Shown: one piece after another, positions 3,812 to 6,568 of the stretch
How the letters are laid out: each line of letters starts with the position of its first letter
Numbering within the stretch: position 1 is the first letter of the stretch
Virus record (IMG/VR): IMGVR_UViG_2548877009_000008
Origin: a virus
Taxonomy: Duplodnaviria; Heunggongvirae; Uroviricota; Caudoviricetes
Reading direction: 5' to 3' (one strand)
Length of the DNA stretch: 7,621 bases
The notes under the pieces: generated by a model
Seen by the model: the letters and a program-made list of their open reading frames with translations, nothing else
The model's database searches: none
What the model was told of the DNA's origin: nothing
Translations under genes and position numbers: made by a program

Positions 3812-4582
3812 ATGGAAACCGTATTGCATGCACTGAAAGCGATGGGTAAAGCCAATTCTGTTGAACTGGCGGCGCGGCTTGATATCAGCCGTGAAGAAGT
3901 TCTCAACGAACTGTGGGAACTCAAAAAAAATGGCGTTGTTGATAAAACGGGTCACACCTGGTTTCTGGCTGGTGAAGGTGAATCCGGGGTAACCGAAGAG
4001 CAGCCAGCACAGTCTGAAGTACCGGATGTGCTGACCGGGGAGGTCGAACAAAAAGTTACCGCGGACATGATGATTGAGTTTATCTGTCAGGATGGGGCTA
4101 AAACGTGTGAGGAACTGGCGGATAAGTTCGGTGTTAGCATTCGCAAGGTTGCTTCCACGTTGGCGGTCGTAACAGCAACGGGGCGCCTGGCACGCGTAAA
4201 TCAGAACGGTAAATTTCGTTACTGCATACCGGGCGCTGATTTACCGGCAGAGCCGGAAGCTGCATCCGTAGCGGAAACCGATGGTAAAGCCTTTCCTCAG
4301 CTAACAGGTGTTGCGTTACCAGTCCAGGAAACGACGACACAGGAAGAAATAAAAACTGAAAGTGTGGCGGTCACAGTGCAGTCACAGCCGTTGTTCACCA
4401 GAAAACATCCGGATGGTCTGATTTTACCATCGCTGCATGTGGCTAACCGCGAGCTGCGCCGGGCAAAAGGTCAGGTTCAGAAGTGGGAGCGTGTCTGCGC
4501 CGCGCTGCGGGAACTGAACAAGCACCGGGATATTGTTCGGCAGATTGTCGATTCATCCGGTCGTATTGTGTCGGAAAAGTGA
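3812..4582 (+). CDS. Hypothetical prophage protein with two winged-helix-like segments
   Basis: 256-aa ORF; GGAGGA RBS 7 nt upstream of ATG. Residues about 1-45 and 85-135 each resemble a small winged-helix DNA-binding unit. No enzymatic motif seen. Confidence 0.75.
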
Positions 4583-4597
4583 TTGCCGGAGGCGCTT

Positions 4598-4993
4598 ATG
4601 GCGAAACCTTTTACACACGAACAGCGTGAAGAACTGAAGGCCCGAATTATCGGGTTGGTACGCAAAAATGAACGCATGACGATATCACAACTGGAGAGAG
4701 CGACGGGAGCAGGCTGGCATTCAGTCAGACGTTGCCTTGTGGATGTACTGGCTTGTGGCGATTTATACATGCCCGGTAAATACGGTGTTTTTGCATCAGA
4801 ACAGGTGTATCGCGTATGGCGTAAGGCAGCGGAGAAAACAACCGACCAGACATTGATTCGAAAGTTACCAGACGGAGAAATACGCCGCTATGACAGGCAT
4901 CAGAACATAATTTGCAGTGAGTGCCGAAACAGCGAAGTTATGCAGCGTGTACTGGCGTTCTGTCAGGGGTATTTTCAGGAGGTGGTGCTGTGA
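4598..4993 (+). CDS. Hypothetical protein with HTH-like segment and C-terminal CxxC
   Basis: Track ORF 4583..4993 begins at TTG; ATG 4598 preferred because GGAGG lies 5 nt upstream. HTH-like MTISQLERATGAGWHSVRRCL; C-terminal IICSECRN. Confidence 0.7.
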   Translation: MAKPFTHEQREELKARIIGLVRKNERMTISQLERATGAGWHSVRRCLVDVLACGDLYMPGKYGVFASEQVYRVWRKAAEKTTDQTLIRKLPDGEIRRYDRHQNIICSECRNSEVMQRVLAFCQGYFQEVVL

Positions 4994-5050
4994 GTGAAAT
5001 TAGCTATCAGGCTTCAATTGCCGCTGGCATTCGCATCAAAGGAGAGGTGC

Positions 5051-5407
5051 ATGGAAATAAAACCAGAAGATGAGTTAAGTAATATTGTTTTATTTCCGGT
5101 AAAAGAGGATGACCCACGTAATCAGGTTAATTTTCTTTATGAGCCATCGGAAAGGCCATATTGTCATCACGCCTCTGTCCGGGTTGACGAAAAAGAGCGT
5201 CAGGTCCGCTGTAAAATCTGCGGTGCAGTTGTGGAGCCATTTGACTGGATGCTCTCTGTTGCGAAAAGAGAAACCAGGCTGGCAGATGATGTAAAACTAT
5301 TGCGCCTGGAGGAACAGGAAAGGCGAAAAAATATAGGAAAGCTAATTCAGATTGAGCGTAACGCGAAAGCGCGGATACGCAGAGCGACAAAATTCAGAAC
5401 TGAATAA
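5051..5407 (+). CDS. Hypothetical protein with putative zinc-ribbon-like motif and basic coiled-coil C-terminus
   Basis: Track ORF starts at GTG 4994; ATG 5051 preferred because AAGGAGAGG lies 5-7 nt upstream. Cys/His cluster YCHH...RCKICG; Arg/Lys/Glu-rich C-terminus. Confidence 0.65.
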   Translation: MEIKPEDELSNIVLFPVKEDDPRNQVNFLYEPSERPYCHHASVRVDEKERQVRCKICGAVVEPFDWMLSVAKRETRLADDVKLLRLEEQERRKNIGKLIQIERNAKARIRRATKFRTE

Positions 5408-5501
5408 TTAAATTTAGCACTGCTAAAAATTAATCCTTAACCGGAGGGATTTCTGCACCCTCAGAACATCAGGAGACCGCCAGAAAGGGCGGTAATGAAA
5501 A

Positions 5502-5870
5502 ATGACTGAATTAACAAAAGAGCAATTAATCAAAGAAGCCAAATTAAAAATAGCGGTTGCGAAATGTTACCCTAATTCAGAGATGGCCAGGGTAGAGGGA
5601 GAGCTATTCAAAATTGCACTGGCATCGCTGGAGGCGGTTCCGGTGGCATGGCTGCATTCAGACAATGGCCTGGGTATTCCAGCAATAACCAGGAGTAAAA
5701 ACGTTGCTGATAGTTGGTTATCAAAGGGCTGGTATGTTCAGCCGTTATATGTAGCCCAACCTGTACCGGTGGTGCCGGATGCTCGTCCATCTTTAAATAA
5801 TGGCATTGTCGGATTTGATGAAGGCTGGAATGCCTGCCGGGATGCCATGCTTAATGGAGATAAATCATGA
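5502..5870 (+). CDS. Hypothetical prophage protein
   Basis: 122-aa ORF with protein-like composition; stop overlaps the next start (ATGA at 5867-5870). Upstream leader has two short hairpins. No family recognised. Confidence 0.65.
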   Translation: MTELTKEQLIKEAKLKIAVAKCYPNSEMARVEGELFKIALASLEAVPVAWLHSDNGLGIPAITRSKNVADSWLSKGWYVQPLYVAQPVPVVPDARPSLNNGIVGFDEGWNACRDAMLNGDKS

Positions 5871-6568
5871 TTAATCGTATCAAACTGGAGCACATCCTCG
5901 AATATGCCGGGCAGCAGAGGCATATTGGTCAGCATTGTAAAATTCCACCAGGAGATATGGTTGAAATCATGGAGATTGCCATGCGCAAGGCTGGCAACCC
6001 TCCGGTAACTCCGGGGCGTTTGCCTGGCGGTTTCACCATTGAGGAGGCGAAGGAGTTACATGAAGACCTGGTGCGCAGCCACATAAGCAAGGCTTTAAGT
6101 GGCGAAAAGATGAAGAAGAAGGATCTCGATGCTGATTTGCGCTGGATCCATGGGGTTATAGTCCAGGCCGCCTGGTTTGTAAAAGCATCACTGGAGCAGA
6201 ATGTGCTAACGGGTAACTCTCAGGTAATCCCTGATGACGGTCGCGAACAGTTTGAAACACTTATCAGGTTCCATGCAGATGATAAAAACCATGAAACATT
6301 ATTGCTTCGTGCTAACGAAGGGATGAATTACCGGGATCCAAATGTGGATTTGGCATGGATATTCTGGAAATCCAGTCGAGAGCACATATTGCCTGGAAAA
6401 AGCGACAATAATCCAGCATCAGGCGATCAGGTAAGTGAATTAACAATGTGGGTGAAGCGGTTATCTCATTCCTTAAAAAGCGTTAATAAATCAAGCAAAC
6501 TACCGGATAAAGCGATGGACTACCTGAAGCGAAACGGACTGATAAACGAGGAGAATATTTTACGATGA
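5867..6568 (+). CDS. Hypothetical prophage protein
   Basis: 233-aa ORF, GGAG 6 nt upstream of ATG, start overlaps the preceding stop. No recognisable catalytic motif. Confidence 0.7.
   Translation: MINRIKLEHILEYAGQQRHIGQHCKIPPGDMVEIMEIAMRKAGNPPVTPGRLPGGFTIEEAKELHEDLVRSHISKALSGEKMKKKDLDADLRWIHGVIVQAAWFVKASLEQNVLTGNSQVIPDDGREQFETLIRFHADDKNHETLLLRANEGMNYRDPNVDLAWIFWKSSREHILPGKSDNNPASGDQVSELTMWVKRLSHSLKSVNKSSKLPDKAMDYLKRNGLINEENILR

What the first reader, a model, noticed from the sequence alone, without database searches (positions are those of the whole stretch)
3812..6568. Block of five co-directional uncharacterised genes between the replication module and hok
Five tightly packed genes, several with overlapping or closely spaced starts and good ribosome-binding sites, sit where lambdoid phages carry the nin/accessory region. 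I see no nuclease, ATPase or methyltransferase motifs. The first has two winged-helix-like segments, the second another HTH-like segment with a CxxC, and the third a Cys/His cluster followed by a basic coiled-coil. The block may be regulatory or anti-defence cargo rather than enzymatic machinery. I cannot assign any of them to a family from memory, so novelty is unverified.
Basis: inference. Interest (0 to 1): 0.5.

Follow-up and report, generated by a model that had tools for sequence, protein, structure and literature searches.

The report
Accessory genes of a lambdoid prophage
The five genes are real but ordinary: a patchwork of already catalogued, still uncharacterised accessory genes that lambda-like prophages of E. 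coli carry just after their replication genes. One of them is a relative of phage lambda's Ren protein.

Summary
Window 3812-6568 carries five co-directional, selected protein genes between the replication genes (YdaU/O-like, DnaC-like YdaV) and hok/sok of a Rac/Sp-type lambdoid E. coli prophage. All five belong to catalogued families. g1 is Pfam DUF1627 (YdaW). g2 is Pfam DUF977 / PHROG 142, "LygF", a homologue of lambda Ren. g3 is PHROG 1621, a zinc knuckle plus a long basic helix. g4 and g5 are PHROG 5117/660 and 924, a module-shuffled helical family that shares modules with DUF551 proteins. None is enzymatic and none has a tested function.

The block is not one system. g1 always follows the helicase-loader gene, of either lambda-P or DnaC type, and is usually followed by g2. 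In other genera g3 sits next to the Q antiterminator, without g1 or g2. g4 and g5 are rare swappable cargo, and a mosaic joint lies at 5388-5500.

The g1-g2 pair occurs in about 785 of 5426 complete E. coli genomes. The full g4-g5 arrangement occurs in 11.

The likeliest role is early-expressed, non-enzymatic binding proteins that tune replication or counter host exclusion, as Ren does. This is inferred, not shown. Novelty is low.

By-products: a conserved, mostly unannotated 27-codon membrane-peptide ORF; a broken loader gene; and g4 misnamed "valyl-tRNA synthetase" in NCBI.

The parts
3812..4582 (+). g1: 256-aa DUF1627 / YdaW-family protein. Layout: winged helix 1 (about residues 1-56), acidic linker, winged helix 2 (about 84-136), a conserved non-globular stretch (125-185), and a nearly invariant C-terminal helix (about 205-245).
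   Evidence: PF07789 at 278.7 bits against a cut-off of 28.1, and phrog_630 at 1e-130. 100% identical to E. coli proteins P0241 and P0243. Conservation pattern. dN/dS 0.37-0.58. Always directly downstream of the helicase-loader gene in 75 of 75 related loci.
4598..4993 (+). g2: 131-aa DUF977 / 'LygF' / Ren-like protein. The ORF is open from TTG 4583. It has a winged helix plus the Ren signature C-terminal motif N-x(5)-C-R-x-S-x(2)-M-x-R-V-L.
   Evidence: PF06163 at 227.8 bits against a cut-off of 22.1, and phrog_142 'Ren-like exclusion protein' at 4e-42. BLASTP against lambda Ren 3e-6. Lambda Ren keeps all four invariant columns of the family alignment. dN/dS 0.18-0.28.
5051..5407 (+). g3: 118-aa protein (ORF open from GTG 4994). 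Disordered N-terminus, a CxH...CxxC zinc knuckle (C38, H40, C54, C57), and a 54-residue highly conserved basic helix.
   Evidence: phrog_1621 at 1.7e-54. Pfam Zn_Ribbon_TF only sub-threshold at 21.1 bits against a cut-off of 29. Alignment of 38 homologues from 8 or more genera. AlphaFold2 mean pLDDT 70.8, with the helix near 90.
5408..5501 (.). 94-nt intergenic junction with three predicted hairpins. The two mosaic segments of the window overlap at 5388-5500, which includes this stretch.
   Evidence: Window 241-5500 is 95% identical to E. coli C325, and 5388-7621 is 99.3% identical to the 2012C-4502-type prophage. The junction is present in 96 of 252 related loci. g3 lies upstream in 77 of them, but g4 lies downstream in only 18.
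5502..5870 (+). g4: 122-aa protein made of a 'MTxxTKEQL...IALASLEAxPVAW' head, a middle part, and a 'GWNACRDAML' end.
   Evidence: phrog_5117 at 2e-28. phrog_660 positions 3-100 match g4 residues 1-99. No Pfam or NCBIfam hit. In other prophages the same modules are fused in frame to g5-type modules (P0104, P0097). NCBI names it 'valyl-tRNA synthetase'.
5867..6568 (+). g5: 233-aa all-helical modular protein. Head (1-46), module M1 (47-112), module M2 (125-175, a diverged repeat of M1), and a conserved tail (185-233).
   Evidence: phrog_924 at 1.5e-75. phrog_660 positions 94-193 match g5 residues 130-233. Module map from the family alignment. M1 against M2 by BLASTP 2e-4. The head plus M1 is shared with DUF551 proteins. 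The exact protein is indexed in 764 blocks of the collection. The AlphaFold2 model is unusable at pLDDT 42.
6565..6648 (+). A 27-codon ORF for a single-pass hydrophobic peptide (MTWPEAFITVGIAMAVALVVYSICRWG). Its start overlaps the g5 stop (ATGA).
   Evidence: Found in 140 of the fetched loci, in 43 distinct nucleotide versions. Most versions keep a 27-codon frame with conservative replacements even at up to 30 of 84 base differences; five versions carry an internal stop or lose the start or stop. Not annotated in the RefSeq records examined. A few GenBank records call it 'hypothetical' or 'bacteriophage protein'.
3062..3782 (+). Context: DnaC/IstB-type helicase-loader gene (ydaV) immediately upstream. 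It is frameshifted in this window.
   Evidence: A 20-bp deletion between CCTGGC direct repeats, relative to E. coli C325, removes the Walker A codons (GTGKN) and shifts the frame.
6690..7014 (+). Context: the hok/sok type I toxin-antitoxin locus that closes the block. hokD ORF is at 6859-7014.
   Evidence: Rfam RF01794 sok at 113.8 bits, E 4.8e-26, at 6690-6864. hokD is annotated in relatives.

Best explanation
The block is the nin-equivalent accessory stretch of the early rightward operon of a Rac/Sp-type lambdoid prophage of E. coli. It is not one machine. It is a string of independently exchangeable cassettes that are co-transcribed after the replication genes.

Cassette 1 is g1 (DUF1627/YdaW) plus g2 (DUF977, a Ren homologue). 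Both are small non-enzymatic winged-helix proteins tied to the 3' end of the replication module. Cassette 2 is g3, a zinc-knuckle plus long basic helix protein. It is a free-standing nin gene that sits next to the Q antiterminator gene in other genera. Cassette 3 is g4, g5 and the 27-codon ORF. These are translationally coupled members of a module-shuffled helical family that shares modules with DUF551 proteins, and they form the variable cargo in front of hok/sok.

Shown: gene reality, family membership, synteny, mosaic structure and prevalence.

Inferred: expression as early read-through from pR, and function. The most likely action is stoichiometric binding rather than catalysis. By analogy with lambda Ren, g1 and g2 probably act at or near the replication complex, either to tune initiation or to mask the signal that host or prophage abortive-infection systems sense. 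g3-g5 are probably other host- or phage-protein binders. About 0.9 confidence applies to the organisational part and about 0.3 to the mechanistic part.
For: Families. No enzymatic or defence-system domain.

Synteny in E. coli and in viable phages: cI/cro/YdaT/YdaU/YdaV, then DUF1627, then DUF977, then variable genes, then hokD, DUF968, RusA and Q.

Neighbourhood statistics. The gene directly upstream of g1 is a helicase loader in 75 of 75 loci: 47 of lambda-P type (PF06992) and 28 of DnaC/IstB type (PF01695). The gene downstream of g1 is DUF977 in 55 of 69 loci. The gene upstream of g2 is g1 in 67 of 73 loci, and a loader in the other 6, as for lambda ren. The neighbours downstream of g2 and g3 fall into 10-11 unrelated clusters.

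g3 homologues in Serratia, Klebsiella and Erwinia lie after RusA/NinG/YbcO and before ylcG/Q, with no DUF1627 or DUF977 nearby.

Mosaic joint at 5388-5500 and a conserved 94-nt junction. g4/g5 modules are fused or re-sorted in other prophages.

No intergenic terminator or internal promoter beyond chance. Purifying selection.

Ren link: phrog_142 at 4e-42, BLASTP 3e-6, shared invariant C-terminal motif. ren is transcribed from pR with O and P, is 'likely involved in DNA replication', and Ren and O interact with Rex proteins in a two-hybrid assay (bioRxiv 10.1101/2021.04.19.439022). Truncated K-12 YdaW scored as a blocker of the retron-Sen2 toxin RcaT (bioRxiv 10.1101/2020.06.22.160242).
Against: No experiment bears directly on any of the five proteins of this window.

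The Ren analogy rests on homology and position only, and Ren's own mechanism is unknown. This prophage has no rexAB, so an anti-Rex role would have to be against other prophages.

The retron-blocker hit was from an overexpression screen. It used the K-12 fragment, which lacks the most conserved C-terminal half of the family.

The related loci used for the statistics are mostly close relatives (at least 80% identical for g1, at least 51% for g2) from E. coli, so the counts are not phylogenetically independent.

Transcription from pR is inferred from layout, not measured. The loader gene of this particular prophage is broken, so the block may no longer be expressed in a productive cycle here.
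Confidence: 0.6

Rival explanations
1. The five genes form a single multi-component system, either defence or counter-defence, that works only as a set.
For: Same strand and tight spacing, with an ATGA overlap between g4 and g5. No internal terminators beyond chance.
Against: The set does not travel together. g5 accompanies g1, g2 or g3 in only 2-3 of 46-48 loci, and g4 in 5-21. g3 occurs without g1 or g2 in other genera. The g4-g5 pair occurs behind a different DUF1627 variant and a DUF4406 gene. A recombination joint lies between g3 and g4. The complete g4-g5 arrangement is in 11 complete E. coli genomes, against 785 for g1-g2.
Confidence: 0.04
2. g1 and g2 are sequence-specific transcription factors that regulate phage development or host genes by binding operators. 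They would not be replication- or exclusion-related protein binders.
For: Both carry winged-helix domains. g1 gives many sub-threshold hits to ArsR, MarR, DeoR and Lrp-type HTH models. YdaW is listed among E. coli predicted transcription factors of unknown function (PMC9308461). DUF977 was classed as a winged helix (PMC2686095).
Against: No HTH family cut-off is reached. In g1 the second winged helix is the most variable part, while the non-globular stretch 125-185 and the C-terminal helix are the most conserved. That pattern fits a conserved protein partner better than a conserved operator. No repeated operator-like sequence was found in the block. The strict position after the loader gene, whatever its type, points to replication.
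Confidence: 0.2
3. The genes are lysogen-expressed 'morons' that protect the host, for example by superinfection exclusion or abortive infection, like the neighbouring hok/sok.
For: They sit in a variable cargo region next to a toxin-antitoxin locus. In some relatives ParDE or other cargo genes occupy the same slot.
Against: No own promoter or terminator was found. The only promoter-like site in 3000-7200 is the one at hok, at 6777. There are no PADLOC system hits. The genes share strand and reading context with the lytic early operon.
Confidence: 0.1
4. The ORFs are decaying remnants without function in a defective prophage.
For: The adjacent loader gene is frameshifted in this window. PGAP annotates g4 and g5 as pseudogene fragments in identical sequences.
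Against: All five frames are intact. dN/dS is below 1 for g1-g3. g1 is 100% identical to proteins on hundreds of contigs, and exact g4 and g5 proteins are on 1000 or more contigs and in 764 index blocks respectively. Homologous genes are present in viable phages such as Rac-SA53 and Tritos. The PGAP fragments are annotation artefacts on intact ORFs (one search shows 100% identity over 5502-6568).
Confidence: 0.03

Closest known systems
Phage lambda ren (Ren protein, 96 aa). Established knowledge from Toothman & Herskowitz 1980: ren mutants become sensitive to Rex exclusion.
   Same: g2 is a sequence homologue (phrog_142 at 4e-42; BLASTP 3e-6; shared invariant N...C-R-x-S-x(2)-M-x-R-V-L motif). 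Like ren, it lies in the early rightward operon just after the replication genes.
   Different: g2 is 35 residues longer, with a longer N-terminal winged-helix part and a 20-residue insertion. In most loci a DUF1627 gene sits between the loader gene and g2, which lambda lacks. This prophage has no rexAB. No Ren-like phenotype has been tested for DUF977 proteins.
Rac prophage ydaW - lygF pair (E. coli K-12 Rac remnant, phage Rac-SA53)
   Same: Same two families in the same order after ydaU/ydaV. g1 is 67% identical to Rac-SA53 YdaW and g2 is 52% identical to its LygF.
   Different: K-12 YdaW is only the N-terminal 154 residues of the family, followed by unrelated sequence, because of the Rac deletion. 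The window's copies are the O157/STEC-prophage alleles. Function is untested in both.
The lambda/P22 nin region (NinB, NinC, NinE, NinF, NinG/Rap, NinH, NinI, NinX)
   Same: Same genomic slot between the replication genes and Q. The same character of small, dispensable, tightly packed, mosaic genes.
   Different: None of the five proteins matches any Nin Pfam family. Classical nin genes (RusA, and NinB, NinE, NinG in other genera) lie further downstream in relatives.
Mosaic Ea22 / DUF551 accessory proteins of lambdoid and Stx phages (PMC10834534)
   Same: g4 and g5 show the same evolutionary style: portable modules re-assorted between genes at short conserved linkers. The head plus M1 of g5 is found fused to DUF551 domains. 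Ead_Ea22 and DUF551 genes occupy the same slot in sister prophages.
   Different: g4 and g5 contain neither the Ead_Ea22 coiled coil nor DUF551. They show no similarity to the ead/Ea22-like protein of E. coli C325. Lambda ea22 lies in the exo-xis region, not here.

Membership tests
Pfam PF07789 DUF1627 (YdaW family) | Whole-protein score above the Pfam gathering cut-off, covering the full model | tested here: met
   g1 scores 278.7 bits against a cut-off of 28.1, model positions 1-155 of 155. phrog_630 at 1e-130.
Pfam PF06163 DUF977 / PHROG 142 'Ren-like exclusion protein' | Whole-protein score above the gathering cut-off, covering the full model | tested here: met
   g2 scores 227.8 bits against a cut-off of 22.1, model positions 1-134 of 134. 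phrog_142 at 4e-42, positions 1-115 of 116.
Lambda Ren (functional family) | Sequence homology to lambda Ren, including the conserved C-terminal motif | tested here: met
   BLASTP 3e-6. Lambda Ren keeps all four invariant columns (N, C, M, R) of the 19-sequence alignment.
Lambda Ren (functional family) | Position directly after the replication/loader genes in the pR operon | tested here: met
   In the window and in most relatives, g2 is separated from the loader gene only by g1. It follows a loader gene directly in 6 of 73 loci, and follows the replication-protein gene in phage Tritos.
Lambda Ren (functional family) | Confers resistance to Rex (RexAB) exclusion | not testable with these tools
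   This needs plating of g2-plus and g2-minus phage on rexAB-expressing hosts.
Classical nin genes (NinB, NinC, NinE, NinF, NinG, NinH, NinX, RusA) | Match to the corresponding Pfam model | tested here: not met
   No Nin, RusA or PAPS_reduct model is hit by any of the five proteins at E up to 0.1.
Ead/Ea22-like proteins (PF13935) | Ead_Ea22 coiled-coil signature | tested here: not met
   No Pfam hit for g4 or g5. No BLASTP similarity to the ead/Ea22-like protein of E. coli C325.
DUF551 (PF04448) proteins | Presence of the DUF551 domain | tested here: not met
   g5 shares only the N-terminal half (about 53% of the query) with DUF551 proteins. Its own C-terminal half is different, and there is no PF04448 hit.
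TFIIB-type zinc ribbon (PF08271) | Score above the gathering cut-off and four metal ligands | tested here: inconclusive
   g3 scores 21.1 bits, below the cut-off of 29. Four conserved ligands are present: C38 and H40 nearly invariant, C54 and C57 invariant. The best PDB fold hit is the TFIIB N-terminal domain, but at E 0.33.
Known anti-phage defence systems (PADLOC-DB) | Match to a defence-system protein model | tested here: not met
   Only weak HTH-segment hits of g1 to Csa3/CARF-associated HTH models. Nothing for g2-g5.
Valyl-tRNA synthetase (the name NCBI gives to g4) | Class I aminoacyl-tRNA synthetase domains | tested here: not met
   g4 is 122 aa with no Pfam or NCBIfam hit. The name is an annotation error that has propagated in NCBI records.

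The most novel reading that the evidence does not exclude
The DUF1627-DUF977 pair would be a conserved counter-defence module coupled to replication. Two winged-helix proteins, fixed directly behind whichever helicase-loader gene a lambdoid phage uses, would mask the replication-linked signal sensed by abortive-infection systems such as Rex-like systems or retron toxin-antitoxin systems. This would at last give a mechanism and a broader family for lambda Ren. The g4/g5 module-shuffled genes and the 27-aa peptide would then be a diversifying set of further host-protein binders.
Probability: 0.2. Interest if true: 0.55.

Novelty: already known. Interest (0 to 1): 0.2.

Why it matters
As it stands this is a routine piece of a very common E. 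coli/STEC prophage type. All five genes are already in Pfam or PHROGs, and identical or near-identical copies are in public genomes.

Its value is practical:
- It links the 'LygF/DUF977' genes of hundreds of E. coli prophages to lambda ren, a counter-exclusion gene defined in 1980 (my own recall) whose mechanism has not, to my knowledge, been worked out.
- It shows that DUF1627 is positionally locked to the loader gene whatever the loader type. That makes g1-g2 a sensible, cheap target for knock-out and plating tests against Rex-like, retron and other abortive-infection systems.
- It flags annotation problems: g4 is called valyl-tRNA synthetase, g5 is split into fragments, and a conserved 27-codon ORF is missed. 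These problems recur wherever these genes have been annotated.

Tried and rejected
- Structure of g5. AlphaFold2 with a 42-sequence alignment gave mean pLDDT 42 and pTM 0.23. Only the all-helical secondary structure is usable, so no fold search was run on it.
- Structure of g3. The model was acceptable (pLDDT 70.8). Foldseek against the PDB and BFVD gave nothing below E 0.3, only a faint TFIIB zinc-ribbon resemblance. A profile search of PDB sequences found nothing.
- PDB sequence searches for g1 and g2 gave only chance-level hits.
- NCBIfam gave no family for any of the five above cut-off. PADLOC gave no defence system.
- I first took g4 and g5 for Ea22-like proteins, because neighbours in that slot carry that name. 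I rejected this after Pfam and BLASTP showed no similarity.
- The homologue search for g1 returned only relatives at least 93% identical among the 120 listed, so no deep alignment or structure prediction of g1 was possible.
- The scan of GTDB species representatives with a g1 alignment found only Escherichia loci. It therefore could not test synteny in distant taxa.
- Rfam found nothing in the block itself, only sok downstream.
- The repeat search found no operator-like repeats in the block.
- The idea that the five genes are one system was rejected on co-occurrence data.
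Full report
**What the window is.** The ORF map and matches to annotated E. coli genomes show the early region of a Rac/Sp-type lambdoid prophage. In order it carries:
- a LexA-family cI-like repressor (672-1316, minus strand);
- cro (1415-1642);
- a YdaT/cII-position gene (1639-2064);
- an O-like YdaU initiator (2072-3055);
- a DnaC/IstB-type loader, YdaV (3062-3782);
- the five genes of the finding (3812-6568);
- hok/sok (Rfam sok at 6690-6864, E 5e-26).

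In relatives, DUF968, RusA and the Q antiterminator follow. The block therefore sits where lambda carries ren and the nin genes. The window is E. coli DNA: g1 is 100% identical to E. coli proteins found on hundreds of contigs, and exact copies of g4 and g5 are widespread.

**Check of the observation.** All five ORFs are real genes. Their family matches are far beyond chance:

| Gene | Match |
|---|---|
| g1 | PF07789 DUF1627, 1.4e-83; phrog_630, 1e-130 |
| g2 | PF06163 DUF977, 4.8e-68; phrog_142, 4e-42 |
| g3 | phrog_1621, 1.7e-54 |
| g4 | phrog_5117, 2e-28 |
| g5 | phrog_924, 1.5e-75 |

Pairwise dN/dS for g1-g3 against relatives is 0.18-0.58.

Two start codons need correcting. g2 most likely starts at ATG 4598, behind GGAGG. 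g3 most likely starts at ATG 5051, behind AGGAGAGG. These starts match the 131-aa and 118-aa RefSeq lengths. g4 and g5 overlap by ATGA. A sixth ORF of 27 codons (6565-6648) overlaps the g5 stop in the same way.

- g1 has two winged-helix segments.
- g2 has a winged helix.
- g3 has a Cys/His cluster plus a basic helix. C38 and H40 are nearly invariant and C54 and C57 are invariant. The AlphaFold2 model shows a small beta knuckle followed by one 54-residue helix at pLDDT near 90.

The 'CxxC' in g2 is not a conserved pair. Only the second Cys is invariant, and lambda Ren has Phe at the first position. No enzymatic or defence-system domain was found by Pfam, NCBIfam or PADLOC.

**g2 is a Ren homologue.** PHROG 142, which g2 matches end to end, is the family of lambda Ren. 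Direct BLASTP of g2 against lambda Ren gives 3e-6. In an alignment of 18 DUF977 sequences (the window's g2 and 17 relatives) with lambda Ren, all four invariant columns are kept by Ren. These are the N, C, M and R of the C-terminal motif N-x5-C-R-x-S-x2-M-x-R-V-L.

Phage records call the same gene 'LygF' or 'Ren-like exclusion protein'. By established knowledge (Toothman & Herskowitz 1980), ren lets lambda escape Rex exclusion. A recent study states that ren is transcribed from pR with O and P, is 'likely involved in DNA replication', and that Ren and O interact with Rex proteins in a two-hybrid assay. The family is small: 70 clusters at 50% identity among 1.8 billion representatives.

**g1 is DUF1627/YdaW.** It has two winged helices. 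The second aligns weakly with the winged helix of the g2 family (hhalign E 1e-4, probability 57%; phrog_142 E 4e-6).

Comparison of variants 64-89% identical shows an unexpected pattern. The second winged helix and the acidic linker are the most variable parts. A non-globular stretch (125-185) and the C-terminal helix (about 205-245) are almost invariant. This suggests a conserved protein partner rather than a conserved operator.

K-12 YdaW is only the first 154 residues of the family. That fragment scored as a blocker of the retron-Sen2 toxin in an overexpression screen. It is also listed among predicted transcription factors of unknown function, with no promoter of its own. In GTDB species representatives the family was found only in Escherichia, though the scan was pattern-limited.

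**The block is not a unit.** I fetched 240 related loci from IMG/VR, 80 each around relatives of g1, g2 and g3. I then tabulated neighbours.
- The gene directly upstream of g1 is a helicase loader in 75 of 75 loci: 47 of lambda-P type (PF06992) and 28 of DnaC/IstB type (PF01695).
- The gene directly downstream of g1 is DUF977 in 55 of 69 loci.
- The gene upstream of g2 is g1 in 67 of 73 loci, and a loader gene in the other 6, as in lambda.
- Beyond g2 the order breaks down. The downstream neighbours of g2 and of g3 fall into 10-11 unrelated clusters, including DUF551 proteins, Ead_Ea22 proteins and HNH-like genes.
- g4 accompanies the anchor gene in 5-21 of 46-48 loci, and g5 in only 2-3.

In Serratia, Klebsiella and Erwinia, g3 homologues (51-73% identical) lie after RusA/NinG/YbcO and just before ylcG and Q, with no DUF1627 or DUF977 nearby. 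The exact g4-g5 pair occurs elsewhere behind a different DUF1627 allele, a 93-aa protein and DUF4406.

The window itself is a recombinant. Positions 241-5500 are 95% identical to E. coli C325, and 5388-7621 are 99.3% identical to the 2012C-4502-type prophage. The two overlap in the 3' end of g3 and the 94-nt intergenic junction. That junction is present in 96 of 252 loci. It usually has g3 upstream (77 loci) but g4 downstream in only 18.

Among 5426 complete E. coli genomes, the g1-g2 pair is present at 80% coverage or more in 785. The g4-g5 arrangement is present in 11, though fragments of it occur in 1456.

**g4 and g5 are a module-shuffled family.** The alignment of g5 relatives resolves four parts:
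- a head (1-46);
- module M1 (47-112);
- module M2 (125-175), a diverged repeat of M1 (BLASTP 2e-4);
- a strongly conserved tail (185-233).

The head plus M1 also occurs fused to DUF551 domains. g4 consists of a 'MTxxTKEQL...IALASLEAxPVAW' head, a middle part and a 'GWNACRDAML' end.

In other prophages the same pieces are joined in one frame. P0104 (269 aa) is a whole g4-like sequence followed by g5's M1 and tail. P0097 (158 aa) is the g4 head followed by g5's M2 and tail. phrog_660 likewise equals the g4 N-terminus plus the g5 C-terminus.

Mosaic evolution of this kind has been described for Ea22 proteins (PMC10834534). But g4 and g5 are not Ea22 or DUF551 members. The g5 structure prediction failed (pLDDT 42), so nothing can be said about its fold beyond helical content.

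**How it most likely works.** No intrinsic terminator or promoter beyond chance lies in the intergenic gaps of 3000-7200. The only promoter-like site is at hok. With the tight spacing, this implies that the genes are the distal part of the pR early transcript, made together with the replication proteins. This is inferred, not measured.

None of the proteins has catalytic motifs, so they most likely act by binding. For g1 and g2 three observations bear on function:
- the fixed position behind either loader type;
- the homology of g2 to Ren;
- the literature links of Ren to O and Rex, and of YdaW to a retron toxin.

Together these make a role at the replication complex the best guess. That role could be tuning initiation, or hiding the replication-linked trigger of abortive-infection systems. 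I put about 0.3 on that mechanism.

The main rival is that g1 and g2 are classical operator-binding regulators (0.2). A lysogen-expressed defence role (0.1), a single five-gene system (0.04) and decay (0.03) are poorly supported. For g3 the only pointers are a zinc knuckle, an extremely conserved basic helix (13 invariant positions in 38 sequences) and its location next to Q in other genera. No fold relative was found.

**Comparison with what is known, and verdict.** The block is a standard, widespread accessory region. Two of the genes are Pfam DUFs and all five are in PHROGs. One (g2) is a homologue of a named lambda gene. The others have no characterised relatives.

Neither is there anything unusual in sequence, arrangement or distribution. 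Novelty: already known as catalogued families of unknown function. Interest is low (0.2). The residual interest lies in the untested possibility that the DUF1627-DUF977 pair is a Ren-type counter-defence module.

Noticed in passing
window 3062-3782 (deletion point near 3388): The DnaC/IstB-type helicase-loader gene ydaV carries a 20-bp deletion between two CCTGGC direct repeats, relative to E. coli C325. The deletion removes the Walker A codons (GTGKN) and shifts the frame, splitting the gene into ORFs 3062-3535 and 3339-3782. The prophage is therefore probably replication-defective, unless this is a sequencing error.
   Followed up: yes
window 6565-6648 (+): A conserved 27-codon ORF for a single-pass hydrophobic peptide (MTWPEAFITVGIAMAVALVVYSICRWG). 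It is translationally coupled to g5 (ATGA) and lies just upstream of hok/sok. Most of the 43 nucleotide versions across 140 related loci keep a 27-codon frame, even at up to 30 of 84 base differences; five versions are broken. It is absent from the RefSeq annotation examined and is called 'hypothetical' or 'bacteriophage protein' in a few GenBank records. O157 prophages carry a different 34-aa hydrophobic ORF in the same slot.
   Followed up: partly
window 5502-5870 and 5867-6568; L003, L004: Annotation errors in public records. The 122-aa g4 protein is named 'valyl-tRNA synthetase' in NCBI and UniProt-derived records, and PGAP marks it as a partial pseudogene. The intact 233-aa g5 ORF is split by PGAP into a 'partial' fragment plus a shorter CDS, in genomes that are 100% identical to the window.
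   Followed up: yes
window 5408-5501: A 94-nt intergenic stretch with three predicted hairpins (MFE -24.6 kcal/mol) and no T-run. It is conserved in 96 of 252 related loci and marks the point where conserved genes end and variable cargo begins. The window's own recombination joint (5388-5500) overlaps it. Whether it is a recombination linker, an RNA element or a processing site is open. Rfam finds nothing there.
   Followed up: partly
window 2413-2487 (inside the O-like gene ydaU, 2072-3055): A tandem array of four listed 30-nt, half-overlapping copies spaced 15 bp apart, with the recurring core TTGACCC(G/C)TC. They encode the repetitive peptide ...DPLTVDPSNIDPSTVDPSNFDGSTVD.... They look like origin iterons embedded in the initiator gene, as in lambda O (lambda ori iterons).
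   Followed up: partly
window 5867-6568 (g5 residues 47-112 against 125-175): g5 contains an internal diverged duplication of a helical module of about 55 residues (BLASTP 2e-4). MAFFT also aligns M2 of short relatives onto M1 of g5.
   Followed up: partly
window 3812-4582 (g1 residues 125-245): In DUF1627 proteins the predicted DNA-binding winged helix 2 is the most variable part. A proline- and acidic-rich non-globular stretch and the C-terminal helix are nearly invariant between alleles only 64-68% identical overall. This is the reverse of what a classical repressor would show.
   Followed up: partly
window 6690-7014: A complete hok/sok-type type I toxin-antitoxin locus. Rfam sok scores 113.8 bits. 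The hokD ORF is at 6859-7014, and a mok-like overlapping ORF starts at 6802.
   Followed up: no
L009, L010 (Klebsiella prophages), about 10488-10782: Prophages that carry a g3 homologue next to Q also encode an Acb2/Tad1-hairpin family protein (PF24729, an anti-CBASS/anti-Thoeris sponge family) downstream of the lysis genes. It is unrelated to the block, but it shows that counter-defence cargo occurs in these phages.
   Followed up: no
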